From positions 5,614 through 69,613 of the forward strand of contig DDSC01000031.1 in NCBI GenBank assembly GCA_002343265.1: DNA of 64,000 nt, written 5' to 3'. Under the pieces are notes generated by a model. The model searched no databases, was not told the origin of the DNA, and saw only the letters and a list, made by a program, of their open reading frames with translations. The translations under genes were made by a program, and so were the position numbers. Below are positions 36,446 to 58,056 of the stretch, one piece after another. Positions within the stretch are counted from its first letter, which is position 1; every line of letters begins with the position of its first letter. Source of the DNA: Micavibrio sp. UBA2400. Its GTDB lineage: Bacteria; Pseudomonadota; Alphaproteobacteria; UBA2400.

Positions 36446-36455
36446 GACGGCCTCC

Positions 36456-37007: not shown

Positions 37008-37116
37008 GTAAGTTTTCTTGGGGAGGAAACACCCAGCAGGGTGTTACAGAGATTGCTCGCTGCGCTGCGAATTTATTGCTGCAGTGCGGTATTGTCAATC
37101 GACAAATTGATAAATA

Positions 37117-37947
37117 TCAAGTGATTGAGGTCTGAAGGACGCGCCGCTGGTCTTGTTCCAATACCAGTGCCGTGAGGCGTCCGCTGGCATAAGCGCCGGT
37201 ATCAAGGCCGATGCGGTGATGCAAAAGTTCTGGCTCCGGGCTGATGGTGTGGCCATGGACAATAATTTTTTCGAGTGGATGGGGGTGATGGAGAAAGTGA
37301 TCGCGAATCCATAGCCGCCAGTTATCCGTCTGCTCGTGCAGGGGCTCGCTCGGATTAACTCCAGCATGGACAAAATAATAGTCACCAAACTCTGCATAAG
37401 TTGGACGCCGGCGGATCCAGTCCAGATGATCTTGCGGAAAGTGCTCACGCAGCAGATGTTTAAGACGTTCCAGCCGCTCAGGGCTGGGGGTGCCATGCTC
37501 GTAGGGGATGCGATAGCTGGCTAGTGTTTGTAGGCCACCATACAGCAGCCAGCCGGGCAGAGGTGGCTGGTCGCTAAAATAACGCAGTAAGGCCTGCTCG
37601 TGGTTTCCCATCAGGCACACACTTTCAATGTCCGCGGGCAAAGGGTTCATCAGCCGCTCGACCACCTCACGCGAATGTGGCCCGCGATCAATATAGTCGC
37701 CTAAGGTGACGAGAATGCAGCGGCCGGAAAAATCCTCGCGGTCGCGTTCAATTTGGGCGATCAGATCATTCAGACAGTCCAAGCGGCCATGAATATCGCC
37801 TACGGCATATATGCGCATGCCCTCGGGCGCACGTGCGGGCGTAGAGGTATGTTGCGGCGTCTGCGCCGCTGTTTTGGAACCAAACAATCCAAGCATGGAA
37901 CCAGTTATAGCGGATATTGTTGGCAATTGCAGCAGAAATGCAGCCAT
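37117..37947 (-). CDS. Metallophosphoesterase (PrpA/ApaH-like Ser/Thr phosphatase family)
   Basis: IYAVGDIHGRLDCL, GDYIDRGP, GNHE and VHGH motifs. The true start may be an internal Met (MRIYAVGD). Confidence 0.8.
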   Translation of the reverse strand: MAAFLLQLPTISAITGSMLGLFGSKTAAQTPQHTSTPARAPEGMRIYAVGDIHGRLDCLNDLIAQIERDREDFSGRCILVTLGDYIDRGPHSREVVERLMNPLPADIESVCLMGNHEQALLRYFSDQPPLPGWLLYGGLQTLASYRIPYEHGTPSPERLERLKHLLREHFPQDHLDWIRRRPTYAEFGDYYFVHAGVNPSEPLHEQTDNWRLWIRDHFLHHPHPLEKIIVHGHTISPEPELLHHRIGLDTGAYASGRLTALVLEQDQRRVLQTSIT

Positions 37948-44102: not shown

Positions 44103-44255
44103 CCGAAATCCTTACTCAAACGTTAAGCGCGAGGAAGCGCCGATAAACCAGTGAGTCACTCCTATCTCATTTTGGGGACTTGACGACAAGGTGTGTTGGA
44201 GTATCCCGTTATGGTGTCTCCAAGACGCGATGTGTTGTGTAAGTGGTTGCCAAGA

Positions 44256-44311
44256 CCACAATATGTGGTATCTTCTGGATAATATCCACGATATTCACAG
44301 GTTGTGGATAA
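44256..44311 (+). promoter_or_regulatory. Palindromes and DnaA-box-like elements upstream of nrdA
   Basis: CCACA-ata-TGTGG (44256-44268); TGGATA-a-TATCCA (44277-44289), with centres 21 nt apart; and TTGTGGATAA (44302-44311), which is the reverse complement of the TTATCCACA DnaA-box consensus. All lie 30-85 nt upstream of the nrdA ATG. Confidence 0.35.
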
Positions 44312-44340
44312 CGCGGAACGAGACAAGAACGGAGGGGGCT

Positions 44341-46179
44341 ATGGCGAGTGATGGCGGTATGCTGGACTTGGTACAAATTGAACGTGGGCCTAGTGTGCGG
44401 ATTGACCGCAGCCGGGACGCCAAGCTAACCCAGTTCGGCAAGGATACGCTGTCCGACCGCTATCTGATGCCTGGCGAGTCCTATCAGGATATGTTTGCCC
44501 GTGTGGCCATGGCCTATGCTGACGACACGGCCCATGCCCAGCGCCTTTATGACTATATTTCCAACCTGTGGTTCATGCCCTCCACCCCGGTACTGTCCAA
44601 CGGCGGTACGGACCGCGGTCTGCCTATTTCCTGCTTCCTGAATGAGGCAGGCGACAGTCTAGATGGCATCGTCGATCTCTGGACCGAGAATGTCTGGCTG
44701 GCTGCACGCGGTGGGGGGATCGGCTCTTACTGGGGCAACCTGCGTGCAATTGGCGAACGGATTGGCAAGGTTGGCAAGACCTCCGGCGTGATGCCCTTCA
44801 TCAAGGTAATGGACTCCCAGACCCTTGCCATCTCGCAAGGCTCACTGCGCCGTGGCTCGGCGGCTGTCTATCTGCAAGTCTCGCACCCCGAGATTGAAGA
44901 ATTTATCGAAATTCGCCGCCCTACCGGTGGCGATCCCAACCGTCGTGCACTGAACCTGCATCATGGTGTTGTTATCACCGACGACTTCATGAAGGCGGTG
45001 GAGAATGATGAAGAATGGGCGCTCAAGTCGCCCAAGGATGGCCGCGTGATGAGCCGTGTCTCGGCGCGTCATCTGTGGATACGCATGCTCACCGCCCGTG
45101 TTGAAACGGGTGAGCCGTACCTGCTGTTCATCGATCATGTGAATCGCGCCATTCCCGAGCATCACAAGCTGGCCGGCCTGAATGTGAAGATGAGCAACCT
45201 GTGCTCCGAGATCACTCTGCCCACAGGCCGTGATAAGGACGGCAAGAACCGTACAGCGGTGTGTTGCTTGTCCTCGCTCAATCTTGAGACCTATCTGGAG
45301 TGGGAAAATCATCCGACCTTTATTGAGGATTGCCTGCGCTTCCTTGATAACGTCCTCTCTGATTTCATCGCCAGCGCGCCGGACAGCATGAGCCGCGCCC
45401 GGTATGCCGCCATGCGCGAGCGCTCGGTTGGCCTTGGCGTGATGGGATTCCATAGCTTCCTGCAAGGTCAGCGTATTCCGTTTGAAAGCGTCATGGCCAA
45501 GGTCTGGAACAAGCGCATGTTCAAGCACATCAAACAGGAGGCCGATAAGGCATCGGTTGTACTGGCTGATGAGCGTGGCGCCTGTCCGGATGCGGCTGAG
45601 TATGGCATCCATGAGCGCTTCTCCAACAAGATCGCCATTGCGCCCACAGCCTCCATCTCCATCATTTGCGGTGGGGCCAGCCCCGGCATCGAGCCGGTGG
45701 CGGCCAATGTGTACACGCACAAGACACTGACCGGCAGCTATCCGGTTCGCAACCCTTATCTGGCCGACGTGCTCACCGAGCATGGCCAGAACACGGAAGA
45801 GGTATGGTCGAGCATCGCCGTCAATGGTGGCTCGGTGCAGCACCTCGATTTTCTCTCGCAGGATGAGAAGGACGTATTCAAGACCGCGATCGAGCTGGAT
45901 CAGCGCTGGGTGATCGAACATGCGGCGGACCGTACCCCGTTCATCTGCCAGAGCCAGTCGCTCAACATCTTCCTGCCGGCGAACATTCACAAGCGCGACC
46001 TGCACCAGATTCATTATCTGGCGTGGAAGAAGGGCGTTAAGTCGCTCTACTACTGTCGCTCCATGTCGCTGCAACGGGCCGAGAGTGCGGAAGGCGCTGC
46101 CAAGACACAGGCTGCTGCCAACGCCAATACGCCGAAAGATAATCCCAATAACGGCGAAGAGTGTTTGGCCTGTCAGTAG
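44341..46179 (+). CDS. nrdA: Ribonucleoside-diphosphate reductase alpha subunit (short form, no ATP-cone seen)
   Basis: ORF 44191..46179 trimmed to the ATG at 44341 (GGAGGGGG SD). Motifs LPISCFLN, NLCSEITLP, CCLSSLNL, and the C-terminal Cys pair ECLACQ. Confidence 0.95.
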   Translation: MASDGGMLDLVQIERGPSVRIDRSRDAKLTQFGKDTLSDRYLMPGESYQDMFARVAMAYADDTAHAQRLYDYISNLWFMPSTPVLSNGGTDRGLPISCFLNEAGDSLDGIVDLWTENVWLAARGGGIGSYWGNLRAIGERIGKVGKTSGVMPFIKVMDSQTLAISQGSLRRGSAAVYLQVSHPEIEEFIEIRRPTGGDPNRRALNLHHGVVITDDFMKAVENDEEWALKSPKDGRVMSRVSARHLWIRMLTARVETGEPYLLFIDHVNRAIPEHHKLAGLNVKMSNLCSEITLPTGRDKDGKNRTAVCCLSSLNLETYLEWENHPTFIEDCLRFLDNVLSDFIASAPDSMSRARYAAMRERSVGLGVMGFHSFLQGQRIPFESVMAKVWNKRMFKHIKQEADKASVVLADERGACPDAAEYGIHERFSNKIAIAPTASISIICGGASPGIEPVAANVYTHKTLTGSYPVRNPYLADVLTEHGQNTEEVWSSIAVNGGSVQHLDFLSQDEKDVFKTAIELDQRWVIEHAADRTPFICQSQSLNIFLPANIHKRDLHQIHYLAWKKGVKSLYYCRSMSLQRAESAEGAAKTQAAANANTPKDNPNNGEECLACQ

Positions 46180-46240: not shown

Positions 46241-46618
46241 ATGTCACACATCAAACGTATGACACCACTGCGCGTGGTCGATGATCTGGTCGATGAGGGC
46301 ATGTTCTATGAGGCGTTTGGAGCCACCCGTGTGCTGGCCGATGCGCCCGATTGCGTGGGGTATAAAGCCGCCAACGATACCGCCGTGATCCTCACCAGCC
46401 GTAAACTGGCCGACAAAAACTATGGCCCCTTTATCGCCGGGAAGCTGGCCCGCAGCGGAGCACTCTATTTTCATGTGGATAACATCGACGCCGAGCTTGC
46501 CGACCTGCCCGGCGCCGCGCACATTCTCACCCGCGCGGTGGTCGATGGCGTGGAAGAAGCCGTGATCGAAACCGAGACCGGCATGGTGGTGCTGGCAGCA
46601 ACAGCTCTTAGAAGTTGA
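46241..46618 (+). CDS. Small conserved-looking protein, possibly glyoxalase/VOC-like fold
   Basis: ORF 45920..46618 trimmed to the ATG at 46241 (AAGGAGGG SD). 125 aa with host-like G+C. The fold guess comes only from a beta-alpha-beta-like pattern (YFHVDNIDAE). Confidence 0.5.
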   Translation: MSHIKRMTPLRVVDDLVDEGMFYEAFGATRVLADAPDCVGYKAANDTAVILTSRKLADKNYGPFIAGKLARSGALYFHVDNIDAELADLPGAAHILTRAVVDGVEEAVIETETGMVVLAATALRS

Positions 46619-46632
46619 ATGGGAATAATTTA

Positions 46633-47220
46633 ATGGCTATCGACCTTTTACCGAAATTCATATTAGAATCCTACGAAGTACATGAATGGAAACACGCCTG
46701 TGCCATTCTTAAGCAGGATTTCCCCAAAGAATGGAATGATATCTGTTTTGTTCTAGAAGATTTTAGACTTTTACGCAGTTGGATAACAGTTGGTGGTGGG
46801 CGGAAATCTAAAGTTTCTGAAGCTATTGATTCTTCGCTATATAGACTTGGATGGAGCGAACGTCATTTCGAGACCGAAATTGTTATTGATAAAACTGCAA
46901 TGAAATCGCCCACCCACTCGGTTGATTGCTTTAGGAATGGCGTGGCTCTAGAAATTGAGTGGAATAATAAAGATCCTTTTTACGATCGTGACCTCAATAA
47001 TTTTCGACTTCTTTTTGATCTTAGGGCTGTGAGTGTCGGTGTGATAATCACTAGATCTGATGAATTGCAGAGTATTTTTGATGATTTAGGGCGTGGTCAA
47101 AGTTATGGAGCCTCTACGACTCATATGAAAAAACTACTTCCAAGAATTAGTGGGGGTGGTGGGGGCGGATGTCCTCTGCTAGTCTTTGGAATTACAAAAA
47201 AGCTATACATAGAAGACTAG
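46633..47220 (+). CDS. Type II restriction endonuclease, BglII/BamHI-fold candidate
   Basis: ORF 46615..47220; ATG at 46633. HSVDCFRNGVALEIEWNNKDPFYDRDLNNF..VSVGVIITR parallels BglII DIDFGKRDTLVEVQFSNYPF..VAIIITK (recalled sequence). Adjacent to a DNA methyltransferase. Confidence 0.55.
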   Translation: MAIDLLPKFILESYEVHEWKHACAILKQDFPKEWNDICFVLEDFRLLRSWITVGGGRKSKVSEAIDSSLYRLGWSERHFETEIVIDKTAMKSPTHSVDCFRNGVALEIEWNNKDPFYDRDLNNFRLLFDLRAVSVGVIITRSDELQSIFDDLGRGQSYGASTTHMKKLLPRISGGGGGGCPLLVFGITKKLYIED

Positions 47221-47234
47221 AAGGAGTGCTTTGA

Positions 47235-47894
47235 ATGATTCCCCATCTTTCTGCTGCGGAAGATCTTGCTCAGTCATTTGGACGTAAGAAATTCAAAACT
47301 ATTCTAGCCGATCCGCCGTGGCAATTCCAAAATAGGACAGGAAAGATTGCCCCAGAGCATAAGCGGCTTTCTAGATATCCGACTATGCATTTGTCTGACA
47401 TCTGCGATCTACCTGTGCCCAGTTTATTAGCAGATACTGCTCATTTATATCTTTGGGTTCCTAATGCATTGCTTCCCGAAGGACTTAAGGTTATGCAGTC
47501 GTGGGGGTTTAATTATAAAAGCAATATAGTCTGGCATAAAATTAGAAAAGATGGAGGGCCAGATGGACGTGGCGTTGGCTTTTATTTTCGAAACGTCACT
47601 GAACTTCTTCTGTTCGGAGTACGCGGAACTGGCGCTCGAACGCTCTCCCCCGGCAGAAGTCAGGTGAATTTTTTAGCAACGCAAAAGAGAGAGCATTCTA
47701 GGAAGCCAGACGAGATTTTTGATATAATACAATCATGTAGTCCTGGTCCATACTTGGAGCTTTTTGCTAGAGGTGTTCGCAAGGGGTGGGACGTATGGGG
47801 AAACCAAGCAACCGAAAGCTATTACCCTGATTGGGAGACTTATTCGAACCATTCAATGTCCGAACAACGTAATGGTGATAGAGTACGAGCGTGA
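47235..47894 (+). CDS. MT-A70-family N6-adenine DNA methyltransferase
   Basis: Catalytic ILADPPWQF (DPPW) motif, the downstream LYLWV block, and HSRKPDE near the C-terminus; 219 aa. Confidence 0.8.
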   Translation: MIPHLSAAEDLAQSFGRKKFKTILADPPWQFQNRTGKIAPEHKRLSRYPTMHLSDICDLPVPSLLADTAHLYLWVPNALLPEGLKVMQSWGFNYKSNIVWHKIRKDGGPDGRGVGFYFRNVTELLLFGVRGTGARTLSPGRSQVNFLATQKREHSRKPDEIFDIIQSCSPGPYLELFARGVRKGWDVWGNQATESYYPDWETYSNHSMSEQRNGDRVRA

Positions 47895-47925
47895 TACCAG
47901 TTTAGAAAATCATAGGAGTAGAGAA

Positions 47926-48975
47926 ATGCCCTGTCAATTGATGACCCCGAACCCTGTTTACAAGCCCTTCCGTTACCCGTGGGCGTATGACGCGTGGCTC
48001 ACGCAGCAGCGTCTGCACTGGCTGCCGGAAGAAGTGCCGATGGCTGATGATGTGAAGGACTGGCGCAACCGCCTGACTGCATCGGAAAAACATTTGCTCA
48101 CCCAGATTTTTCGTTTCTTCACGCAGGCGGATGTGGAAGTGGGCAACTGCTATAACAAGCATTACAGCCGCGTCTTCCAGCCAACCGAAGTGCAGATGAT
48201 GCTTACCGCCTTCTCGGCGATGGAGACCATCCATATCGCGGCCTACTCGCATCTGCTCGACACCATCGGTATGCCGGAGAGCGAATACTCGGCCTTCCTC
48301 AAATACAAGGAGATGAAGGACAAGTACGACTATATGCAGAACTTCAATGTGGACAACCCCACTGAAGTGGCGCGTACACTCGCGGTGTTCGGGGCGTTCA
48401 CGGAGGGGCTGCAGCTGTTCGCCAGTTTTGCCATCCTCATGAACTTCCCGCGCTTTGGCAAGATGAAGGGCATGGGCCAGATCGTTACCTGGTCGGTGCG
48501 TGATGAGACCTTGCACACGCTCTCCATCATCCGCCTGTTCAAGAGCTTCGTCGCCGAGAACCCCGAAGTCTGGACCGAACAGTTCAAACAGGAGTTGTAT
48601 GCGGCGTGCGATACCATCGTGCAGCACGAGGACGCCTTTATTGATCTCGCCTTTGAGCTGGGCGAGATCGATGGGCTGAACGCACAGCAGGTGAAGGATT
48701 ATATCCGCTGGATTGGTGATCGCCGTTTGCAGCAGCTAGGCCTTGAGCCGAAGTACAACATCCCCAAAAACCCGCTGCCGTGGATGGATGAAATCCTCAA
48801 CGGTGTCGAACACGCCAACTTCTTCGAAAACCGCTCGACCGAGTACAGTAAAGCTGCCACCGCCGGGACATGGGATGAAGCTTTTGAGGAGTTTGACACC
48901 AAGCGCGAAGCGGTGCGTACTGCTGCTTTCGCCGCCTTTACCGCCGATGATGGCACTCGCCCAGCCGGGTACTGA
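47926..48975 (+). CDS. nrdB: Ribonucleoside-diphosphate reductase beta subunit
   Basis: ORF 47764..48975 trimmed to the ATG at 47926 (TAGGAG SD). The alternative ATG is at 47941. Di-metal/radical-site helices FFTQADVEVGN, AMETIHIAAYSHLL, FTEGLQLFASF, VRDETLH. Confidence 0.95.
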   Translation: MPCQLMTPNPVYKPFRYPWAYDAWLTQQRLHWLPEEVPMADDVKDWRNRLTASEKHLLTQIFRFFTQADVEVGNCYNKHYSRVFQPTEVQMMLTAFSAMETIHIAAYSHLLDTIGMPESEYSAFLKYKEMKDKYDYMQNFNVDNPTEVARTLAVFGAFTEGLQLFASFAILMNFPRFGKMKGMGQIVTWSVRDETLHTLSIIRLFKSFVAENPEVWTEQFKQELYAACDTIVQHEDAFIDLAFELGEIDGLNAQQVKDYIRWIGDRRLQQLGLEPKYNIPKNPLPWMDEILNGVEHANFFENRSTEYSKAATAGTWDEAFEEFDTKREAVRTAAFAAFTADDGTRPAGY

Positions 48976-49345: not shown

Positions 49346-50122
49346 TTACGGCCCGCCAGAGACACCATAACTGGCGACTAGCGAACCAGCCAGCATGTGC
49401 CAGCCATCGATCAGGACAAAAAACACGATTTTGAAGGGCAGGGAGATCACCACTGGCGGCAGCATCATCATACCCATGGCCATCAGGATGGACGCCACCA
49501 CCATATCGATCACCAGAAACGGCAGGAAGAGCAGAAAGCCGATTTCAAAAGCGCGGCGTAATTCCGAGATCATGAAGGAGGGGATTAGCGCTACCAGCGG
49601 GGTTTCTTCGGCTTTCATATTTTCGGTCTTGTACTTGCCCATGTCGAGAAAAAGCTGCAGGTCTTTCTCACGGGTATGCTGCAGCATAAAGGTCCGGAAT
49701 GGAGCGACGCTTTTATCAAACGCGTCTTTTGCCTCAAGATCGTTGTTCATGTAGGGCTGTACGCCATCCGTCCACGCCTGTTGCAGCGTTGGGGCCATGA
49801 TGAAAAAGGTCAGGAACAGCGCCAGCGAGATCAGGACCTGATTGGGTGGAGTCTGCTGCACGCCAAGGGCCGAGCGCAGGAAAGATAACACCACAACAAT
49901 ACGGGTAAAGCTGGTCACCATCACCAGAATGCCCGGCGCCAGCGAGAGCAGGGTGATAAGTGCTACCAGCTGCACAATACGGGCCGAACTGCTGGCCCCA
50001 TCGCCCATGTCGAGGGAGAGCTGCTGCGCGAGGGCGGGCAGGGCTACGAGACAGAGCAGGGCAAGCCCCAAGAGCTTACCCAGCGTCGGCAGGTGGGCGC
50101 GCAGGTTTTTCACAAAGGTCAT
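49346..50122 (-). CDS. fliP: Flagellar export apparatus protein FliP
   Basis: 258 aa with a signal-like N-terminus. Conserved stretches TSFTRIVVVLSFLR, GVQQTPPNQVL, FLTFFIMAP and FLLFLPFLVIDMVVASILMAMGMMMLPP. Confidence 0.95.
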   Translation of the reverse strand: MTFVKNLRAHLPTLGKLLGLALLCLVALPALAQQLSLDMGDGASSSARIVQLVALITLLSLAPGILVMVTSFTRIVVVLSFLRSALGVQQTPPNQVLISLALFLTFFIMAPTLQQAWTDGVQPYMNNDLEAKDAFDKSVAPFRTFMLQHTREKDLQLFLDMGKYKTENMKAEETPLVALIPSFMISELRRAFEIGFLLFLPFLVIDMVVASILMAMGMMMLPPVVISLPFKIVFFVLIDGWHMLAGSLVASYGVSGGP

Positions 50123-50406
50123 GGCTTATCTCCCCCGGCGCCTTGGATGCCGCTTTCCACTACCACCGGCCCGGCCTGTGCGGACAAAAGCACCAGATGC
50201 TCGGTCTGATCCCGGCGCAGTAATACCAATTGGTGGCGATGATCGATGATCTTGCGCTCCACCAGCGTAAGGCGGGGATTAGCCGGGGTACCGATCATCC
50301 CCGGTAGACCGGGGGAGACTTTGCGCACGGCCCAGGCCACCAGCCCGATCAGGCATAAGGTGAAGAGCAGCGCCGCCAGCGCGCGCAGAAGATCGGCACT
50401 TTCCAT
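50119..50406 (-). CDS. fliO: Flagellar biosynthesis protein FliO
   Basis: 95 aa with a single TM (ALAALLFTLCLIGLVAWAV), then LTLVERKIIDHRHQLVLLRRD. 4-nt overlap with fliP. Confidence 0.7.
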   Translation of the reverse strand: MESADLLRALAALLFTLCLIGLVAWAVRKVSPGLPGMIGTPANPRLTLVERKIIDHRHQLVLLRRDQTEHLVLLSAQAGPVVVESGIQGAGGDKP

Positions 50407-50449: not shown

Positions 50450-50773
50450 TTAGCCTTTGCTGCTAGCGCTGGTCTTGGCGTAGGCCGTAGCAGCCTTCAG
50501 CCGGGTATTGATAAGCTGCATGGCTTCCTCGGCGGCACCTTGCTGGCGCTTGAAATCGGCGGTCAGCTCATCCAGCGTGGATGCTAACTCGGTTAGCGCA
50601 GGCAGATAGCTTTTTCCCAGCTCCTTGGGGGCCGCGTGCAGGCTGGACATAAGCTCAGAGATCAACTTATCGAGCTGTGTGCCTTCACTGACCGTGCCCT
50701 CACTCAGGCGGCTGCGTAATTGCTCGGCCTCGGTACGCACCGCGGCCAGTTTTGCGTCAATTTCATCTTTCAT
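50450..50773 (-). CDS. Coiled-coil protein, unknown function (flagellar operon)
   Basis: 107 aa with heptad-like helical composition. ATGA overlap with the upstream gene. Confidence 0.5.
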   Translation of the reverse strand: MKDEIDAKLAAVRTEAEQLRSRLSEGTVSEGTQLDKLISELMSSLHAAPKELGKSYLPALTELASTLDELTADFKRQQGAAEEAMQLINTRLKAATAYAKTSASSKG

Positions 50774-51060
50774 GTGAAATCCTCCGGCGCATAGGTCTTA
50801 CTATTAGCCTGATAGACACGACTCAGTATTTCACTCACCGCAGCAAGTGCCTCCAGCGGGACCTGCTCACCTAAATCAAGGGCGGCAAGAATTTCAGCCA
50901 GATCAGCGTCTTCTCGTACCTTGATCCCTTGTTCAAACGCTAGCTTAAGTATTTCGGCAGCGACCTCGCCATAGCCGCTGGCCAAAATTTGGGGCAGCTT
51001 ACCCTCTCCGCTGATGGCGGCTGCAACCTGGCGTTTCGGAGTCTCGGGTGTATCGTTCAT
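50770..51060 (-). CDS. FlhB C-terminal-domain-only protein (EscU/YscU/FlhB-C family)
   Basis: ORF 50770..51081 trimmed to the ATG at 51060 (ATGA overlap). ILASGYGEVAAEILKLAFEQGIKVREDADLAEILAALDLGEQVPLEALAAVSEIL aligns with the post-NPTH part of FlhB. Confidence 0.7.
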   Translation of the reverse strand: MNDTPETPKRQVAAAISGEGKLPQILASGYGEVAAEILKLAFEQGIKVREDADLAEILAALDLGEQVPLEALAAVSEILSRVYQANSKTYAPEDFT

Positions 51061-52598
51061 CTCAGCAGTTGGCTCACCCACTCTGGTCGGGTCACAGGCC
51101 AGAGCAACAGGGCTATTAGTACGGCGAGCAAGGCTGCCGCAAAGCCCGTAGCCAGAGTTCCTCCGCCAGCCCGCAGGCTCACCGGGGCGGGAATAAGCCG
51201 TTGCAGAGCCTGTTTGCCGGCGATGCCAATTGCGAGCCAGAGACAGAGGAGCAGCAGAGCAGCCAAGGCGAGATCCCAGCCCATGACAGGTATCTGTGGG
51301 GGTAAGGACGCAGGGCGGGGCTGGCTAATCCACATATAATAGGCACCTGCACCAGCCCCCATCCCCACCAGACCGGTCAACAGACGGGGGATAAAGGAGA
51401 TATTCTTGAAAACCAGCCGAATGCGATCGACTAAGGCAAAGGCACACTCACGCGACAAGCCGTAGGGATAGCGCTGGGTAAAGAAGCGGGCGGGTTTCAC
51501 GCCACGGGCTAGCGCCTCGGTCAGCTCACGGATGATACGGAATTTGCGGGACAGGCTGGGAAGGCTCAGACTGTTGATCTGCTCGAGGACGGGATTGATC
51601 TGATCATCGATCAGCTTGGGAAAGCCCATCAGCACCGGGCGCATCCCCACCGCCTCAATATCTTCGATCTTGCCATTCAACTCCATCCGAAAGCGCCCAT
51701 ATGGGACAATAGCCTGATAGAACAGTGCGGCCTCGCCGCTGGCGTTGGCACGGGTGTCAGGTGTGATGAGCGCGTGACCTTCTGTCAGGCCTTGGGCCCC
51801 TACATCATCGACAAGATTGCCGACTGCGACTGGTGCCTTGCCGGGATCGCCTGCGGCAAAGCGTCCGATCGCGTTGACCAGCACCGTCGTTTCTTCAGTC
51901 TGGAATTTCAGCCCCTGACACTCCCGGCACTGGGTCAGTCCCATGCCGCGGCAGACGTGGCAGGGCACACGCTGCTGCCCGTTACAGCTATGGCAGGGCA
52001 GGACGCGTCGGCCTTGACAGCGCAGACAGGGGCGACTGCGGTCGGCAGGATCTATTCCGCTTCCGGCACAGCCTTGGCAGGTGAGGGTGCCGCTACCTGA
52101 GCAGGTCGGGCACTGAATATCCCGCTGACCATGGCAGTTGAGGCATTTTTCATTCCCGGTGCCCAGACACAGATCGCAGATTAACTGCAGGGCAACGCGC
52201 TGGCTGAGTTTGGGTAAACTCCAGCGACCTTCCTCCAGTCCCCAGCCGCCATGCGGCGCACTACTGGCCAGAGCGCGGACCTCTTCAACCCAGCCCTGCT
52301 CGGCAATCTGATCGCGTAGGCTATTGAGGTAGGATTGTTCTTCGGTACGGTCACGAAAGACGCGCATTTCGCCGCCGCGGGCGGGGCCAGCCAGCCTGCG
52401 CATCTCCTGTTTTATTTCTAGCTCGAGTTGTAGCTTGCCGGGGATTTTGTAGTCAGAATTCTCAATCTGTTGGATCTGTATCTGTTCCAGCTTGTAGCCA
52501 TTGCCCACCAGCAGCCGCCGGAGCAGAGCCAATGTTTTGGCGTATTGATCGCCCCCTCCCTGCGGTGTTGGAGCATCTGTCTCGTCGATTTCGCTCAT
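51057..52598 (-). CDS. Membrane protein with eight CxxC zinc-finger-like motifs (doubled DnaJ-CR-like domain)
   Basis: 513 aa. Residues C141-C227 contain CDLCLGTG, CLNCHGQR, CPTCSGSG, CQGCAGSG, CLRCQGRR, CHSCNGQQ, CHVCRGMG and CRECQG. Three C-terminal hydrophobic helices. ATGA overlaps at both ends. Confidence 0.7.
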   Translation of the reverse strand: MSEIDETDAPTPQGGGDQYAKTLALLRRLLVGNGYKLEQIQIQQIENSDYKIPGKLQLELEIKQEMRRLAGPARGGEMRVFRDRTEEQSYLNSLRDQIAEQGWVEEVRALASSAPHGGWGLEEGRWSLPKLSQRVALQLICDLCLGTGNEKCLNCHGQRDIQCPTCSGSGTLTCQGCAGSGIDPADRSRPCLRCQGRRVLPCHSCNGQQRVPCHVCRGMGLTQCRECQGLKFQTEETTVLVNAIGRFAAGDPGKAPVAVGNLVDDVGAQGLTEGHALITPDTRANASGEAALFYQAIVPYGRFRMELNGKIEDIEAVGMRPVLMGFPKLIDDQINPVLEQINSLSLPSLSRKFRIIRELTEALARGVKPARFFTQRYPYGLSRECAFALVDRIRLVFKNISFIPRLLTGLVGMGAGAGAYYMWISQPRPASLPPQIPVMGWDLALAALLLLCLWLAIGIAGKQALQRLIPAPVSLRAGGGTLATGFAAALLAVLIALLLWPVTRPEWVSQLLR

Positions 52599-52870
52599 GC
52601 GCCCTCCTCATCTTCCCCCTTGGCAGGCGCAGGGGGGAGCGGGGCGGGTTGGCTGGGTAAAGTAAGGATGGAGAGATCCGGGGGGGCATTTTCTGCCGCA
52701 GCGCGGTTTTCGGCCTGAATGCGCTCAAACACTTCCTTACGCAGGATGGTCACCTCCGGGGGGAAGACAAAACCGAGTTTGACCGTCTTTCCAGAGACGG
52801 AAATAACTGTGATTTCAACATCTTCGTCGATCACGATAGTTTCGCCGGGTTTGCGCGTCAGGTACAGCAA
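52595..52870 (-). CDS. csrA: Carbon storage regulator CsrA with Pro-rich C-terminal tail
   Basis: MLYLTRKPGETIVIDEDVEITVISVSGKTVKLGFVFPPEVTILRKEVFERIQAEN matches the CsrA consensus (MLILTRRVGET..V.IG..AP..V...R.E....I), followed by about 35 extra residues. Confidence 0.85.
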   Translation of the reverse strand: MLYLTRKPGETIVIDEDVEITVISVSGKTVKLGFVFPPEVTILRKEVFERIQAENRAAAENAPPDLSILTLPSQPAPLPPAPAKGEDEEGA

Positions 52871-52876
52871 CGGATT

Positions 52877-52892
52877 TGGCCTGCTTTCTGCA
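52877..52892 (+). promoter_or_regulatory. Candidate sigma54 (-24/-12) promoter for flgB-flgC-fliE
   Basis: TGGCCTGCTTTCTGCA has the GG and GC dinucleotides at the canonical TGGCAC-N5-TTGCA spacing, about 100 nt upstream of flgB. Confidence 0.4.
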
Positions 52893-52994
52893 TAGGTCAG
52901 TGCGGGGAGCGATCCCCTAGGTAATAATTATCAGGCCCCGGCCAACCTGACAAAGACAAAGTTCTGCGGGTTTCGGGGTGAAAGGGTGGGAATC

Positions 52995-53399
52995 ATGGAC
53001 CTGACCGGTATGACCGTGTTCCGGCAACTGGAACAAAAAATGGGCTGGCTGTCAGCCCGGCAGTCAGTTTTAGCCGAAAATATAGCCAATGCGGATACTC
53101 CGGGCTATCGCCCGCGCGATCTTCAGGCCTTTGCCAGCCTCGTTGACGGTCGTGGCGGGTTGCCTATGCAGGTCACCAGTCCCGTCCATATGGTGGGCAG
53201 TAATGGCAATACTGCCACACCTTCGGCTCAGCGCGACCGCTATGCCATCGAGACCTCGCCGAACGGCAATCAGGTGTCGCTTGAAGATCAGCTGACCAAA
53301 ATGGGTGAAAACGGCATGGATTACCAGTTCATGACCAATCTGTATCGCAAACAGATCAGCATGATTAAAACCGCGCTTGGTCGCGGCACATCGGCTTAA
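52995..53399 (+). CDS. flgB: Flagellar basal-body rod protein FlgB
   Basis: ORF 52986..53399 (GTG); ATG at 52995. LAENIANADTPGYRPRDL motif. Confidence 0.9.
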   Translation: MDLTGMTVFRQLEQKMGWLSARQSVLAENIANADTPGYRPRDLQAFASLVDGRGGLPMQVTSPVHMVGSNGNTATPSAQRDRYAIETSPNGNQVSLEDQLTKMGENGMDYQFMTNLYRKQISMIKTALGRGTSA

Positions 53400-53410
53400 G
53401 GAGGAGTGTC

Positions 53411-53827
53411 ATGAGCAGTGATCTCTTAACCTCGCTCACCGTTTCAGCGTCCGGCATGAAGGCGCAAAGTCTGCGTATGCGGGTGATTGCTGAAAATATC
53501 GCCAATGCCGAGTCAACCGCCGACAAGACGGGTGGGCTGCCCTATCGCCGACAGGTGGTGAGCTTTGCCAGCGAGCTGGACAAAGCCAGTGGTGCCAATC
53601 TGGTCGAAGTGAGCAAAGTGGGGCGTGATCCCAGCCAGTTCGTACGCCGCTATATGCCCGGCCATGCCAGTGCCGATGCGGATGGCTATGTGATGTATCC
53701 CAACGTCAACTCATTAATCGAAACCATGGACATGCGCGAAGCCCAGCGCAGCTATGAAGCCAACCTGAATGTTATTGAAGTGTCACGCATGATGCTGATG
53801 CGCTCAATTGACATTCTGCGCGGATAA
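53411..53827 (+). CDS. flgC: Flagellar basal-body rod protein FlgC
   Basis: SASGMKAQSLRMRVIAENIANAEST..PYRRQ, C-terminal EANLNVIE; 138 aa. Confidence 0.95.
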   Translation: MSSDLLTSLTVSASGMKAQSLRMRVIAENIANAESTADKTGGLPYRRQVVSFASELDKASGANLVEVSKVGRDPSQFVRRYMPGHASADADGYVMYPNVNSLIETMDMREAQRSYEANLNVIEVSRMMLMRSIDILRG

Positions 53828-53841
53828 GGAGAAGCTTAACC

Positions 53842-54147
53842 ATGGCCAATCTTAACCAGATCGCTGCATCCGCCTATGGGGCGACCCAAAAGCTGCCGAC
53901 GCTTCCGAGCCTTGAAGCCAAGACGGATGACGTTAGCTTTTCCGATCTGGTTGAAAAGGCGATTGATAGTTTTGAAGGAACGCAGGCTAAAGCAGAAGAT
54001 ATGAGCATCAAAGCTGCTCAGGGCAAGGCTGATATCAATGACGTTATCCTCGCCGTACAGAATGCCGACGTTGCCCTTAGTGCCGTGGTGACGATCCGTG
54101 ATAGGATCATTCAGGCGTACCAAGATGTGCTCCGGATGGCGATTTAA
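53842..54147 (+). CDS. fliE: Flagellar hook-basal body protein FliE
   Basis: 101 aa. FSDLVEKAIDS..; C-terminal VVTIRDRIIQAYQDVLRMAI. Confidence 0.85.
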   Translation: MANLNQIAASAYGATQKLPTLPSLEAKTDDVSFSDLVEKAIDSFEGTQAKAEDMSIKAAQGKADINDVILAVQNADVALSAVVTIRDRIIQAYQDVLRMAI

Positions 54148-54737
54148 GCCTTCCGGTAAATAAAAATCTTTCCTTGGTGCAGGTAGCGGGTTTTTATCTT
54201 GCGCTCTTCCTGTGGGATCCAGCCTCTACCGAGGCGAAATTTATTACAGATTATAAGTGAGTGTGGAGCAGCTTCGTACTCCAGTTTTTCGGCAATCCTT
54301 GTCAGAAGCGACGGGAGCATGAAGATAACGAAGGCATTACCCTGTGACCAGTCAATCTTGAAGAAGTCGCTGCGGACATAGGTAAGGTTATCGAGGCCTT
54401 GCCGCTTCTTCATCCAGTTGGACCAAAGAACTGATAGTGCATTCAATTCGACACCTACGACATTGGCCTGCGGCAGGGCTTTGGCAATCTGACGAGTGAG
54501 GTGCCCGTTACCTGAGCCGAGATCATAGATCGTATAACGCGGGAGGGTGCGCGCCGCATAATCGTCGCGTAGCAGGCGGATGATTTCCTCACGGATTGCT
54601 GGCGCTGTCCGGATATTCGGAACGCCACCATGAAACAGGACAAAATAGGCATAGATTAGCCAGGCACCACAGGCCAGATAAAAGCTGATCTCGGTCAGGT
54701 AGTGCAGTGTTATGGCGAACATGGGTAGTAAGTCCAT
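54144..54737 (-). CDS. Membrane-anchored class I SAM-dependent methyltransferase
   Basis: ORF 54144..54923 trimmed to the ATG at 54737, which avoids overlap with fliQ. N-terminal hydrophobic helices, then motif I YDLGSGNGHLTRQI and VVGVELN. Confidence 0.65.
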   Translation of the reverse strand: MDLLPMFAITLHYLTEISFYLACGAWLIYAYFVLFHGGVPNIRTAPAIREEIIRLLRDDYAARTLPRYTIYDLGSGNGHLTRQIAKALPQANVVGVELNALSVLWSNWMKKRQGLDNLTYVRSDFFKIDWSQGNAFVIFMLPSLLTRIAEKLEYEAAPHSLIICNKFRLGRGWIPQEERKIKTRYLHQGKIFIYRKA

Positions 54738-55108: not shown

Positions 55109-56134
55109 TTAAGCCAACCGGGCGGTACACCGCCCTATAATCCACCAGAGCAGCAGGGTCAGCACGATGGCGACATAGCCATCGATTGCGTAGTGCCAGC
55201 CTAGGTGGATGCTCGCCAGCAGCATGGTCACCAGAAACAGCACGGCCCCGGCAAAGAACCAGCGGTTGAGGGAATAGGCCACACAGGCGAACAGCGTGGC
55301 CATGCTGATATGCATGCTCGGAAGTGCCGAGATGCCGCCGAACTGGCTCATTTTACCAGTGCGATAGATTTCGAGCAGGATGTCGCGAAAACCGAGCGCG
55401 GAGAGGGCGTGGCTGTCCAGAGCCCGCAAATACTCGATAATAGGGGCAAAGCGGGCAGAATCGCCTACGAAAATATCGTAGTAGACCGGTCCCCCGGACA
55501 GAAACAGCCCAGCCATCAGGTTTCCCAGCAGGGCCCAGCTCAGGAGGTAGGTATAAAAATAACGATGACGCAGCGCCCGTGACGTAATGGAGAATGTTAC
55601 CAGAACAGGGAAGAAGAGGATAGCTAGCAGCCATAGGGCTGAATAGACCAGCTCTAGCGACCGGGTGATAATGGGGTGTCCCAGAAAAGGCTGTAGCCAG
55701 AACCATGGATCAACGCCGCCGTGCAGGGTTCGGTCCAGTTGAGCCAGCGGTGCGTCCCACGCGAATTCAAAATACTTCGGCAGCAGAATTTTGACGGTAA
55801 GAAAGCATTGAATGAAAATGAGCAGAAACGGAATGAGCAGAACTCCCAGTGCGAGTTGCGGTGTCAGTTTGGCACGAAAGACAGCGGGTAGTGCCGCGAG
55901 CGGGCTGTCCTTATGATGGCGCAGGACCTGCAGCAGACTGACTAGCGCCAGCCAGAGTATCAGCAGCAGGGCGATGGCGGGGCCATAGCCGATCGCAAAC
56001 TCAAGCGGGTTAAAGCGGTGTTTCTGATGGAGGGCAATCAGGCCTGCGAGGCCGAAGTAGCCCAGAAAACCGTAAAAAACCCAACGCTCCGCATAAAGCT
56101 CGGCACGCAGGGAAGATAAAAAGGTGGGTGACAC
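55109..56134 (-). CDS. PAP2_C / sphingomyelin-synthase-like polytopic membrane protein
   Basis: 341 aa, 6 or more TM segments. LPSMHISMA (PSGH-like) and HLGWHYAIDGY (HxxxD, cf. the HYTIDV motif of SMS/IPC-synthase-like enzymes). Confidence 0.55.
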   Translation of the reverse strand: MSPTFLSSLRAELYAERWVFYGFLGYFGLAGLIALHQKHRFNPLEFAIGYGPAIALLLILWLALVSLLQVLRHHKDSPLAALPAVFRAKLTPQLALGVLLIPFLLIFIQCFLTVKILLPKYFEFAWDAPLAQLDRTLHGGVDPWFWLQPFLGHPIITRSLELVYSALWLLAILFFPVLVTFSITSRALRHRYFYTYLLSWALLGNLMAGLFLSGGPVYYDIFVGDSARFAPIIEYLRALDSHALSALGFRDILLEIYRTGKMSQFGGISALPSMHISMATLFACVAYSLNRWFFAGAVLFLVTMLLASIHLGWHYAIDGYVAIVLTLLLWWIIGRCTARLA

Positions 56135-56970: not shown

Positions 56971-58056
56971 ATGGCTGAAGAATCCGAAGACCAATCCAGT
57001 AAAACGGAAGAACCAACCCAGAAAAAGCTGGATGACGCCCGCGAGAAGGGCGAAATCATCCTTTCGCGCGAGGTCAATCATTGGTTCATGATTCTTGCGG
57101 CGACTGTCTTTCTGCTTCTGTTTGCAGGTCCCGCCGCTCTTCAACTTGGGGCCGGATTGCGCGATCTTATCATTCGCCCACATGATTTTGCCGTTGGGGA
57201 TGTTGCTGGGGTTGGTGCCCTGTTTAGCGATCTGCTTCGCTTGGTTCTGCTGGCTCTGCTCCTGCCATTTCTGGCGTTTCTTGTGGCGGCTATCGCCGGG
57301 GCGTTGGTACAGTCCGGCTTTTTGTGGGCTCCTGAAAATATCGTACCCAAGCTGGACCGGGTGTCCCTGATTCAGGGGTTTTCCCGTCTCTTTTCCCTGA
57401 AGAACCTGCTTGAGTTTCTTAAAGGCATACTCAAATTAACTATTGTCGCCGTTGTGCTGCTGGCACTGATCTGGCCTGTTTTACCAACACTGGAACATAC
57501 CATTGACCTACCGATTGTAACGATGCTGGGCGAGTTGAAAATCATCAGTCTGCGGTTACTCGGCGGTGTGCTGGCGATCATGTTTGTGATCGCGGTTATG
57601 GATTATCTCTTGCAGCGTCAATTGTTCATGATGCGGATGCGGATGAGCCGCCATGAGCTGAAAGAAGAATTCAAACAGGCCGAAGGCGACCCGCAGATTA
57701 AACAGCGGATACGCCAGATCCGTGCCGAGCGCGCCCGTCGCCGCATGATGGCGGATGTACCTAAGGCGGATGTTATCATTACCAACCCGGATCACTATGC
57801 CGTTGCGCTCGAGTATAAGCCGCCCCAGCACAGTGCGCCGATTGTCATAGCGATGGGGGTTGATCTGCTCGCGCAGAAAATCAAAGAGATCGCCCGCGAG
57901 CATAATATCCCAATTGTCGAAAATCCGCCGCTGGCCCGCGCACTCTACGCTACTGCCGATCTCGACCAGCAAATCCCCCAGGAGCACTTCAAGGCTGTGG
58001 CTGAAATCATCAGCTACGTTTTCAAGCTGAAAGGACGTAGCGGGAAAAAGCCATGA
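56971..58056 (+). CDS. flhB: Flagellar export apparatus switch protein FlhB
   Basis: MAEESEDQSSKTEEPTQKKLDDAREKGE, four TM segments, an NPxH autocleavage site (ITNPDHYAVAL), and PIVENPPLARALY. Confidence 0.95.
   Translation: MAEESEDQSSKTEEPTQKKLDDAREKGEIILSREVNHWFMILAATVFLLLFAGPAALQLGAGLRDLIIRPHDFAVGDVAGVGALFSDLLRLVLLALLLPFLAFLVAAIAGALVQSGFLWAPENIVPKLDRVSLIQGFSRLFSLKNLLEFLKGILKLTIVAVVLLALIWPVLPTLEHTIDLPIVTMLGELKIISLRLLGGVLAIMFVIAVMDYLLQRQLFMMRMRMSRHELKEEFKQAEGDPQIKQRIRQIRAERARRRMMADVPKADVIITNPDHYAVALEYKPPQHSAPIVIAMGVDLLAQKIKEIAREHNIPIVENPPLARALYATADLDQQIPQEHFKAVAEIISYVFKLKGRSGKKP

What the first reader, a model, noticed from the sequence alone, without database searches (positions are those of the whole stretch)
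51057..52870. csrA translationally coupled to a membrane protein with eight CxxC motifs at the head of a flagellar export operon
A clear CsrA homolog with a ~35-aa Pro-rich tail heads a minus-strand operon in which successive genes overlap by ATGA (52595-52598, 51057-51060, 50770-50773). The order is csrA, the 513-aa protein, a FlhB-C-only protein, a coiled-coil protein, fliO, fliP. The 513-aa protein has eight consecutive CxxC(x)G motifs (nt 51918-52178). That is twice the four-motif cysteine-rich domain of DnaJ, so up to four zinc centres. A soluble region and three C-terminal TM helices follow. Where CsrA is encoded in flagellar loci, its known antagonist is FliW, and no FliW-like ORF is present in this window. 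To my knowledge CsrA is also uncommon in Alphaproteobacteria. The tight coupling suggests the zinc-finger membrane protein is a stoichiometric partner, tether or antagonist of CsrA linked to export-gate assembly. This last point is inference only.
Basis: partly seen in the sequence, partly recalled or inferred. Interest (0 to 1): 0.7.

Follow-up and report, generated by a model that had tools for sequence, protein, structure and literature searches.

The report
CsrA-coupled membrane zinc-finger flagellar gene
In a Micavibrio-like bacterium the RNA-binding regulator CsrA is co-translated with a 513-residue membrane protein carrying eight zinc-knuckle motifs and a small look-alike of the FlhB export-switch tail; the trio stays together in all 11 related genomic places examined, so the membrane protein is a credible but untested new player in flagellar control.

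Summary

- **Family:** X belongs to an undescribed family, with at least 262 clusters at E<=1e-30. The few that carry a name are hypothetical proteins from alphaproteobacterial MAGs. Eight CxxC motifs plus three TM helices is the ancestral state of this family.
- **Context outside the clade:** 5 of 5 relatives sampled outside one clade lie in housekeeping contexts, with no csrA or flagellar genes nearby.
- **Context inside the clade:** in a clade of about 19 clusters (X identity 31-59%), csrA-X-flhX-like is intact in 11 of 11 places, mostly with overlapping stop and start codons. Neighbouring non-flagellar inserts turn over.
- **CsrA:** the linked CsrAs form a distinct subgroup with a disordered Pro-rich acidic tail. 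They keep I51 and N55, the FliW-contact residues.
- **FliW:** none was found in the window or the related loci, but whole genomes could not be searched. X has no FliW-like fold.

Verdict: a real, conserved and novel module. A physical CsrA-X link remains inference. X may equally partner the FlhX-like protein, or only be co-expressed.

The parts
52924..52953 (-). sigma-70-like promoter of the csrA operon (TTGTCA, 17-18 nt spacer, TAATTA/AATTAT)
   Evidence: Consensus scan. The same -35 TTGTCA and a TA-rich -10 are conserved in the closest relatives L004, L018 and L006. Function is inferred.
52904..52917 (-). 5'-proximal hairpin of the csrA leader (GGGGA-UCGC-UCCCC)
   Evidence: Folded in the window, L004 and L018. 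The stem is kept with different sequences in 4 relatives. Weak evidence: few sequences, and the fold z-score is about 0.
52876..52892 (-). conserved leader element UGCRRRAASYRGGCCAA, 4-5 nt upstream of a non-AUG start
   Evidence: Invariant TGC..AA..GGCCA in 9/9 in-clade loci. The spacing to the start varies by 1 nt, so it is non-coding. The loop reads AGGAA (a GGA motif) in 5/9 loci but AGAAA in the window.
52595..52870 (-). csrA (91 aa, TTG start): CsrA core 1-56 plus a Pro-rich acidic tail
   Evidence: Pfam and NCBIfam above cut-off. Best solved relative is 5DMB_D, the Geobacillus CsrA from the FliW complex. I51 and N55 are present. The tail is predicted unstructured, pLDDT 42-55. Tail motif DLxxLxLP has an invariant P72.
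51057..52598 (-). X: 513-aa membrane protein, cytoplasm-facing N-terminal ~400 aa plus three TM helices
   Evidence: ORF. AF2 pLDDT 85.9. Family of >=262 clusters. No Pfam or NCBIfam family apart from a sub-threshold CRD hit. No signal peptide at the N-terminus (sequence).
51918..52178 (-). cysteine-rich domain: eight CxxCxG motifs as two blocks of four with an 11-residue period
   Evidence: Motif positions 141, 152, 163, 174 | 191, 202, 213, 224. BSD2_CRD 24.5 bits, cut-off 27. Foldseek match to BSD2 6ekb, E 3.6e-3, prob 0.99.
51090..51386 (-). three transmembrane helices of X (residues ~405-425, 442-465, 480-503)
   Evidence: AF2 helices and hydrophobic segments.
50770..51060 (-). FlhX-like gene: FlhB C-terminal (post-cleavage) subdomain only, 96 aa
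   Evidence: Bac_export_2 36.3 bits, profile positions 270-335 of 335. Aligns to residues 290-357 of the window's own FlhB, downstream of its NPDH site at 272. It has no NPxH motif and no TM helix.
50450..50773 (-). 107-aa helical protein of unknown family
   Evidence: Only sub-threshold helical-bundle hits in Pfam. A homologue follows the FlhX-like gene in L004, L006, L014, L018 and L020, but not in L001.
50119..50406 (-). fliO
   Evidence: TIGR03500 24.5 bits, below cut-off. Assigned from its position upstream of fliP and the ATGA overlap with it.
49346..50122 (-). fliP
   Evidence: Pfam FliP 280.9 bits, TIGR01103 295.7 bits.
52995..54147 (+). divergent flgB-flgC-fliE
   Evidence: Precomputed Pfam families Flg_bb_rod, Flg_bbr_C and FliE. 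The same divergent arrangement is seen in the in-clade loci long enough to show that flank.

Best explanation
**What X is.** X is an inner-membrane protein. Its first ~400 residues face the cytoplasm. They comprise a beta-rich domain carrying two tandem BSD2/DnaJ-like four-motif zinc-knuckle units (up to four Zn(Cys)4 sites), followed by a helical domain. Three C-terminal TM helices anchor it. X is a member of an uncharacterised family in which this architecture is ancestral; its few named members come from alphaproteobacterial MAGs.

**What happened in this lineage.** In one lineage (Micavibrionales-like), the gene became fixed between csrA and an flhX-like gene. The operon has a sigma-70-like promoter and runs divergently from flgB-flgC-fliE. 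X is translationally coupled to both neighbours.

**Proposed function.** I propose that in this lineage X acts as a membrane platform of the flagellar export and regulation module. It would hold at least one of its two co-translated neighbours at the membrane near the export gate: CsrA, through its clade-specific disordered Pro-rich tail or its alpha-helix, and/or the FlhB-CC look-alike. That would tie CsrA's translational control of late flagellar genes to the state of the export apparatus.

**Shown:** gene identities, coupling, conservation of the trio, the architecture, and family membership.

**Inferred:** cytoplasmic orientation, zinc binding, every protein-protein contact, and the regulatory consequence.
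For: 1. csrA-X-flhX-like is intact in 11/11 in-clade places: the window/L012, L001-3, L004, L006, L010, L014, L015, L018 and L020. X identity falls to 31% and the CxxC count changes from 8 to 6 to 4 across them.
2. Stop and start codons overlap at csrA/X in 7 of the 8 junctions read (ATGA in 5, 1 nt in L006, 14 nt in L020). The eighth, L015, has a 2-nt gap. X/flhX overlaps by ATGA in 5 of the 6 junctions read.
3. Internal control: non-flagellar genes inserted in the same clusters differ from locus to locus, whereas X never moves. Examples are the methyltransferase and PAP2 in the window, Na/Ca exchanger plus DIT1 in L010, and two 515-aa membrane proteins in L006.
4. The X-linked CsrAs are a separate subgroup of a large alphaproteobacterial CsrA family. 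They read SVSGK instead of EVRGK, and LRKEVF instead of LRREIY. They carry an 85-115-aa form with a DLxxLxLP...Pro-rich...acidic tail in place of a short amphipathic end. The tail is predicted disordered, as expected for a docking segment.
5. CxxC loss (to 6 and to 4 motifs) occurs in two in-clade lineages. 130/137 out-of-clade members keep eight, which suggests changed constraints after recruitment.
6. Precedent: the protein antagonists of CsrA named in the papers read here are FliW and CesT, the latter a protein chaperone (PMC7829508, PMC4894983). FlhX-type proteins occur in operons with a partner gene, as in fliK2-flhX of P. putida (bioRxiv 10.1101/2021.08.29.457346).
7. A flagellin gene in in-clade locus L014 has two GGA motifs in its leader, one at the SD (CAGGGAU ... 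AAGGGAGG). This fits a canonical CsrA target.
Against: - No interaction was computed or measured. No multimer prediction was available.
- X keeps all 41 family-wide conserved positions and has only 11 scattered clade-specific ones, so there is no obvious new binding surface.
- 5/5 out-of-clade family members lie in unrelated housekeeping contexts, so the family's basic function does not need csrA next door.
- All in-clade loci come from one lineage, so part of the synteny is inherited.
- CsrA keeps I51 and N55, and ERIQAENRAAAE is as invariant in the X-linked CsrAs as in the other, mostly short-tailed CsrAs, whose contexts were not examined. This points to a shared partner such as FliW.
- The acidic end of the tail overlaps the ribosome-binding site of X (GAGGAGG), so part of its composition may be a coding by-product.
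- The GGA leader motifs are not statistically supported: z-score 0.38, and no motif enrichment in the window.
Confidence: 0.4

Rival explanations
1. Co-expression only. X performs the still unknown general function of its family, for example a membrane-associated zinc-dependent holdase or scaffold. It sits in this operon through a lineage-specific rearrangement that has simply been inherited. CsrA is controlled by a canonical FliW encoded elsewhere in the genome.
For: - The family is large and otherwise unlinked to csrA or flagella in 5/5 sampled contexts.
- X retains all family-wide conserved positions.
- CsrA keeps the FliW-contact residues I51 and N55, and the helix is nearly invariant across the whole alphaproteobacterial CsrA family (PMC7829508).
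- CsrA and FliW co-occur strongly across bacteria (bioRxiv 10.64898/2026.06.11.731707).
- ATGA overlaps are common in compact operons. This operon has four, including fliO/fliP.
Against: - The trio is kept in 11/11 places while other inserted genes in the same clusters turn over.
- The linked CsrAs have their own subgroup signature and tail.
- No FliW appears in the 64-kb window or in about 150 kb of in-clade loci, including one with a flagellin gene.
Confidence: 0.3
2. FliW replacement. X is the CsrA antagonist of this lineage and works by partner switching. Its chaperone-like zinc-knuckle domain would hold unexported flagellin or another late substrate at the membrane. When export starts, X is freed and sequesters CsrA, releasing flagellin translation.
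For: - No FliW was seen in any in-clade sequence examined.
- csrA and X have overlapping stop and start codons, consistent with coupled translation.
- The clade-specific CsrA tail.
- The CRD resembles BSD2; from general knowledge, BSD2 and DnaJ are chaperones that bind non-native proteins.
- The CsrA protein antagonists named in the papers read here are FliW and the chaperone CesT (PMC7829508).
Against: - X has no FliW-like sequence or fold.
- Whole genomes were not searched for FliW.
- I51 and N55 are conserved as in FliW-bearing species.
- Two in-clade lineages have lost 2 or 4 of the 8 CxxC motifs, which is odd if the CRD were the key binding module.
- The family exists without csrA adjacency elsewhere.
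Confidence: 0.12
3. The cysteine-rich N-terminal part is periplasmic, and the CxxC pairs act as thiol-disulfide redox centres for envelope or flagellar assembly rather than as cytoplasmic zinc sites.
For: CxxC is also the active-site motif of thiol-disulfide oxidoreductases (general knowledge). Charge counts around the TM helices are not decisive: 3, 1, 2-3 and 2 K+R.
Against: - There is no signal peptide or N-terminal TM helix to export a 400-residue domain.
- The CxxCxG periodicity and the match to BSD2 indicate zinc knuckles.
- AF2 models short beta-hairpins typical of zinc ribbons.
Confidence: 0.03

Closest known systems
CsrA-FliW-flagellin partner-switching checkpoint (Bacillus subtilis, Campylobacter jejuni, Helicobacter pylori)
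   Same: - A CsrA with a C-terminal extension is encoded among flagellar genes.
- I51 and N55 are conserved.
- The best solved relative is the Geobacillus CsrA from the FliW complex (PMC7829508, PMC4894983).
- A flagellin leader with two GGA motifs occurs in a relative.
   Different: - The gene coupled to csrA is not FliW. It is a 513-aa membrane protein with no FliW-like sequence or fold.
- The CsrA tail is twice as long, Pro-rich, acidic and predicted disordered.
- No FliW was seen in the sequence available.
DnaJ-type cysteine-rich domain proteins without a J-domain (BSD2; from general knowledge also the plant membrane proteins Orange and LQY1)
   Same: Repeated CxxCxG(xG) motifs with an ~11-residue period. 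Weak sequence and structure matches to BSD2. From general knowledge, Orange and LQY1 likewise combine TM helices with such a domain.
   Different: - Eight motifs in two blocks instead of four.
- The domain is inserted in a ~400-aa cytoplasmic region with no other recognisable fold.
- A bacterial family whose named members are all alphaproteobacterial.
- No J-domain.
- The Pfam score is below the curated cut-off (24.5 against 27).
FlhX (HP1575 of H. pylori; PP_4329 of P. putida): free-standing homologue of the processed C-terminal part of FlhB
   Same: The gene downstream of X encodes only the FlhB-CC part, without TM helices or an NPxH cleavage site. A full-length flhB lies elsewhere in the window at 56971-58056. 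FlhX genes sit in small operons with a partner gene, as in fliK2-flhX.
   Different: Here the upstream partner is X, not a FliK-like protein. TIGR00789 scores 54.6 bits, below its 117.35 cut-off. Orthology to FlhX was not tested.
CesT-CsrA (enteropathogenic E. coli)
   Same: Precedent that a protein chaperone can bind and antagonise CsrA (cited in PMC7829508). That CesT belongs to a type III secretion system is general knowledge.
   Different: CesT was not compared with X here. From general knowledge it is a small soluble chaperone with no evident similarity to X, and it acts on a CsrA without a C-terminal extension.

Membership tests
CsrA/RsmA (PF02599, TIGR00202) | Profile match above the curated cut-off over the whole ~53-residue core | tested here: met
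   PF02599 78.4 bits against 27, residues 1-52 of 53. TIGR00202 72.4 against 70.1.
CsrA/RsmA (PF02599, TIGR00202) | RNA-binding residues in beta1 and beta5 (L2, L4, R6, R/K7, R44; general knowledge from E. coli mutagenesis) | tested here: met
   The sequence MLYLTRK...LRKEV has L2, L4, R6, K7 and R44. Binding itself was not tested.
FliW-regulated CsrA subtype | C-terminal extension with V/I51 and N55, the FliW contact residues (PMC7829508) | tested here: met
   I51 and N55 present. The alignment to 5DMB_D runs to residue 66.
FliW-regulated CsrA subtype | A fliW gene in the same genome | not testable with these tools
   No PF02623 hit in the window or in-clade loci.
FliW (PF02623), as an identity for X | FliW profile match or FliW-like beta-barrel fold | tested here: not met
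   No Pfam hit. Foldseek against the PDB listed no FliW structure among its 50 best matches, and no match reached E<=0.001.
DnaJ / Hsp40 | J-domain plus a CRD with four CxxCxGxG motifs plus C-terminal domains | tested here: not met
   Only 15 bits to the DnaJ equivalogs (cut-offs 377-548), restricted to the CRD. No J-domain.
BSD2-type cysteine-rich domain (PF25436) | Profile match above the gathering score | tested here: inconclusive
   24.5 bits against 27, residues 161-208. Foldseek 6ekb E 3.6e-3, prob 0.99, TM-score 0.39 normalised to the 62-residue target. Eight CxxCxG motifs are present.
FlhX / FlhB-related (TIGR00789) for the downstream gene | Free-standing FlhB-CC domain: Bac_export_2 C-terminal match, no TM region, no NPTH site | tested here: met
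   PF01312 36.3 bits against 24.4, profile 270-335/335. Aligns to FlhB 290-357. No NPxH. TIGR00789 itself is below cut-off, 54.6 against 117.35.
New '8xCxxC + 3 TM' family (undescribed; named members are alphaproteobacterial MAG proteins) | Full-length ~500-aa match, 16 conserved Cys, GNG motif near the N-terminus, YPxG motif before TM1, three C-terminal TM helices | tested here: met
   Profile search: 262 clusters at E<=1e-30, aligned end to end. 41 family-wide conserved positions include all 16 Cys, G32-N33-G34 and Y377-P378-G380.

The most novel reading that the evidence does not exclude
X-family proteins are membrane-bound protein partners of the alphaproteobacterial CsrA subfamily in general. 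On this reading they tether or antagonise CsrA at the inner membrane in place of, or in addition to, FliW. The Micavibrionales-like lineage merely reveals the pairing by placing the two genes (and an FlhB-CC mimic that reports the export-gate state) in one translationally coupled operon. This would be a third kind of CsrA control, after sRNA sponges and the soluble proteins FliW and CesT.
Probability: 0.12. Interest if true: 0.8.

Novelty: new variant of a known kind. Interest (0 to 1): 0.5.

Why it matters
CsrA is among the most widespread post-transcriptional regulators. In the papers read here its activity is controlled by sRNA sponges or by two proteins, FliW and CesT. Alphaproteobacteria show the highest average loss of ancestral flagellar genes (>40%).

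A conserved, translationally coupled csrA-X-flhX-like module offers a concrete, testable candidate for membrane-linked control of CsrA, or for a new accessory of the flagellar export switch. It occurs in a lineage whose identified members are Micavibrio relatives; Micavibrio aeruginosavorus is an obligate predator of other bacteria (PMC3189940).

Independently, it puts a first functional handle on a family with several hundred sequence clusters and up to four zinc sites that has no Pfam or NCBIfam model.

Tried and rejected
- **X as a disguised FliW:** rejected. No Pfam hit and no FliW structure among the 50 Foldseek matches listed.
- **X as DnaJ:** rejected. No J-domain; only the CRD matches weakly.
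- **Fold assignment for the non-CRD parts of X:** nothing in the PDB beyond chance, TM-scores about 0.1.
- **sRNA antagonists or any Rfam family in the window:** none at gathering thresholds.
- **Enrichment of the CsrA site CANGGANG in the window:** none, 40 found against 39.7 expected.
- **Structured leaders:** the csrA leader and the L014 flagellin leader fold no better than shuffles, z from -0.1 to +1.6. Only the 5' hairpin shows some covariation.
- **FliW presence in Micavibrio from the literature:** the supplementary table of bioRxiv 10.64898/2026.06.11.731707, as stored, lacks CsrA and FliW columns. No held paper mentions both Micavibrio and CsrA.
- **Genome and metagenome scans with X:** only 2 loci each, because the back-translated patterns were clade-specific. 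They say nothing about out-of-clade copies in the same genomes.
- **Identity of the 107-aa helical protein:** only sub-threshold coiled-coil-like hits.
- **CsrA monomer AF2 model:** poor, pLDDT 59, as expected for a domain-swapped dimer. Used only to show that the tail has no predicted structure.
- **Natural CsrA-X fusion as Rosetta-stone evidence:** one 643-aa gene call (P0180) exists. It differs from the unfused reference by two 1-nt insertions 20 nt apart in short homopolymer runs, on a single auto-assembled contig. I treat it as a probable assembly error.
Full report
**1.

On the minus strand, csrA (52595-52870, TTG start) is a clear CsrA. It scores PF02599 78.4 bits against a cut-off of 27, and TIGR00202 72.4 against 70.1. 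Beyond residue ~60 it carries a tail with 8 Pro and 6 Asp/Glu.

It overlaps by ATGA the 513-aa ORF 51057-52598, called X here. X overlaps by ATGA an FlhB-C-only gene (50770-51060), which overlaps by ATGA a 107-aa helical protein (50450-50773). After a 43-nt gap come fliO and fliP, again overlapping by ATGA.

X has exactly eight CxxCxG motifs at residues 141-227, which is nt 51918-52178. They form two blocks of four with an 11-residue period. The AF2 model is confident (pLDDT 85.9). It shows short hairpins through the cysteine-rich part, a beta-rich and a helical region, and three long C-terminal helices. No signal peptide precedes the 400-residue N-terminal part, so it should stay in the cytoplasm; this is inference.

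flgB-flgC-fliE run divergently. fliQ, fliR and a full-length flhB follow, interrupted by a methyltransferase and a PAP2 gene.

**2. What X is**

X matches no curated family. The only signals are a sub-threshold hit to the BSD2 cysteine-rich domain (24.5 bits against 27) and 15-bit hits to the DnaJ zinc-finger region. Foldseek against the PDB finds only BSD2 (6ekb, E 3.6e-3). The 50 matches listed include no FliW structure, and none reaches E<=0.001.

A word-based search finds only 13 close homologues at 42-59% identity. A profile search of 1.8 billion representatives finds far more: 262 clusters at E<=1e-30, aligned end to end, almost all 470-580 aa. Where named, they are hypothetical proteins of alphaproteobacterial MAGs.

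Eight CxxC motifs occur in 159 of the 177 full-length (>=400 aa) sequences then held. Forty-one positions are conserved family-wide, including all 16 Cys. So "twice DnaJ" is the ancestral state of an undescribed family, not a peculiarity of this locus.

**3. Where the csrA link holds**

In a neighbour-joining tree the window protein falls in a clade of 19 of the 156 representatives. I looked at 11 in-clade places:

- the window's own contig (L012; L013 is a second assembly of it)
- L001-3
- L004
- L006, a Micavibrio sp. MAG
- L010
- L014
- L015
- L018
- L020

Every one has csrA immediately upstream of X, and every one that extends past X (all but L010, where X ends about 100 bp before the locus end) has the FlhB-C-only gene immediately downstream. 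Every locus long enough to show the other flank also has divergent flgB-flgC-fliE.

At csrA/X the stop and start codons overlap in 7 of the 8 junctions read; L015 has a 2-nt gap. At X/flhX they overlap by ATGA in 5 of the 6 junctions read.

The helical protein follows in most loci, but not in L001. fliO-fliP follow in only some. Other inserted genes in these clusters differ from locus to locus. That makes a useful internal control: passengers turn over, X does not.

Outside the clade, 5 of 5 contexts are unrelated housekeeping neighbourhoods with no csrA and no flagellar gene. The neighbours include SurA/DnaE, a methyltransferase with DUF4167, UvrA/SSB, ATP synthase and ferrochelatase.

Two in-clade lineages have reduced the CxxC count to six and four.

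**4. The CsrA side**

The window CsrA belongs to a large, tight subfamily of at least 216 clusters. They begin MLYLTRK and share an almost invariant ERIQAENRAAAE. Named members are alphaproteobacterial MAG proteins and Limimonas halophila. CsrA is therefore not rare in uncultured Alphaproteobacteria.

| Feature | X-linked CsrAs | Other alphaproteobacterial CsrAs |
|---|---|---|
| Strand-loop motif | SVSGK | EVRGK |
| Before the helix | LRKEVF | LRREIY |
| Length | 85-115 aa | mostly 74-80 aa |
| C-terminal end | DLxxLxLP, then Pro-rich, then acidic | mostly short, amphipathic |

The tail has no predicted structure.

All of them keep I51 and N55. These two residues are needed for FliW binding in C. 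jejuni, and N55 also in B. subtilis; N55 is identical, and position 51 is V or I, in the FliW-bearing species compared (PMC7829508). The best solved relative is the Geobacillus CsrA from the FliW complex.

This cuts both ways. The helix may still bind a FliW encoded elsewhere, or X may use the same surface.

No FliW is found among the window ORFs or in about 150 kb of in-clade loci, one of which includes a flagellin gene. Whole genomes could not be searched.

**5. The downstream neighbour**

The 96-aa protein aligns only to residues 290-357 of the window's own FlhB. That lies beyond the NPDH autocleavage site at 272. The protein has neither an NPxH motif nor TM helices.

This is the FlhX type: a free-standing copy of the processed FlhB C-terminal subdomain. 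In H. pylori, FlhX can partly replace FlhB function. In P. putida it forms an operon with a partner gene, fliK2 (bioRxiv 10.1101/2021.08.29.457346). X is as tightly coupled to this gene as to csrA.

**6. Regulatory region**

- The operon has a sigma-70-like promoter, conserved in the closest relatives.
- The leader begins with a hairpin whose stem is kept with different sequences in 4 relatives.
- An invariant element, TGC..AA..GGCCA, lies 4-5 nt upstream of the start.
- The start codon is non-AUG (TTG or GTG) in 9 of 9 loci.
- In 5 of 9 loci the element presents AGGAA in a small hairpin loop, the classical form of a CsrA site. The window itself reads AGAAA, so autoregulation cannot be claimed here.
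- In L014 the flagellin leader carries CAGGGAU and an SD-overlapping AAGGGAGG 27 nt apart. The fold is not better than shuffles.

**7. Interpretation**

The evidence establishes a conserved, co-translated csrA-X-flhX-like module in a lineage whose identified members are a Micavibrio sp. MAG and a Pseudobdellovibrionaceae MAG. Micavibrio is o__Micavibrionales in the GTDB taxonomy quoted, and Bdellovibrionota/Pseudobdellovibrionaceae in NCBI taxonomy. The module is built around a recruited member of a wider zinc-knuckle membrane family.

| Reading | Confidence |
|---|---|
| X is a membrane platform that physically engages at least one of its two coupled neighbours and ties CsrA-dependent control to the export gate | 0.40 |
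| Co-expression only, with a canonical FliW elsewhere | 0.30 |
| Outright FliW replacement by partner switching | 0.12 |
| Periplasmic redox role | 0.03 |

None of the protein contacts was testable with the tools at hand.

**8. Verdict**

Its own refutation criterion, loss of the adjacency in relatives, is not met. Three of its arguments need revising:

- The eight motifs are an ancestral family trait.
- CsrA is not rare in these bacteria.
- FliW cannot be declared absent.

This is a new variant of a known kind of system, flagellum-linked CsrA control, built around an undescribed protein family. It is worth an experiment, but not yet a mechanism.

Noticed in passing
window 46615-47894 (+), between nrdA 44191-46179 and nrdB 47764-48975: A BglII-type restriction endonuclease and an MT-A70 DNA methyltransferase, plus a 125-aa ORF, sit between the two ribonucleotide reductase subunit genes. 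The segment has 47.5% GC against about 56% around it, which suggests an inserted restriction-modification cassette.
   Followed up: partly
window 52868-52953 (-); L001, L004, L006, L010, L014, L015, L018, L020 upstream of csrA: csrA starts with TTG or GTG in 9/9 loci and is preceded by an invariant non-coding element, TGC..AA..GGCCA. In 5/9 loci this element forms a small hairpin with AGGAA in the loop, the shape of a CsrA site, hinting at autoregulation. The window has AGAAA there instead.
   Followed up: partly
protein P0180 (643 aa, one Logan contig) compared with L020 9940-10090: One gene call fuses CsrA and X into a single protein. Compared with the unfused reference, it needs two 1-nt insertions (AAAA to AAAAA, TT to TTT) 20 nt apart inside the 14-nt csrA/X overlap. 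This is probably an assembly error, but a real fusion would be Rosetta-stone evidence.
   Followed up: partly
L014 17850-17912 (leader of a flagellin gene in an in-clade relative): Two GGA motifs, AUCAGGGAUAC and CAAGGGAGG, lie 27 nt apart and the second overlaps the SD. This resembles the CsrA-bound flagellin leaders of Bacillus and Campylobacter. The predicted fold is no better than shuffled sequence.
   Followed up: partly
window 54144-54722 (-) and 55109-56134 (-): A SAM-methyltransferase gene lies between fliE and fliQ, and a PAP2-family membrane phosphatase gene lies between fliQ and fliR. Both are on the opposite strand. Relatives carry different or no inserts at these positions.
   Followed up: partly
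proteins P0016/P0170 (L020) and P0018 (L014): Two in-clade lineages of X have lost zinc-knuckle motifs, down to six and four CxxC. 130/137 out-of-clade family members keep eight.
   Followed up: partly
proteins P0220-P0315: A large, very uniform CsrA subfamily: MLYLTRK..., with ERIQAENRAAAE almost invariant, mostly 74-80 aa. Its named members are alphaproteobacterial MAG proteins and Limimonas halophila. Its genomic contexts and FliW linkage were not examined.
   Followed up: no
window 34503-37947 (-); L004 3975-7396: A calcineurin-like phosphoesterase and an HATPase_c_2 protein lie in the window, next to an unscanned 405-aa ORF. In relative L004 a phosphoesterase, STAS, HATPase_c_2 and response-regulator/SpoIIE genes lie directly downstream of fliP. 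This is the gene set of a partner-switching module.
   Followed up: no
window 1-64000: No Rfam family, including tRNAs and known sRNAs, reaches its gathering score anywhere in the 64 kb.
   Followed up: no
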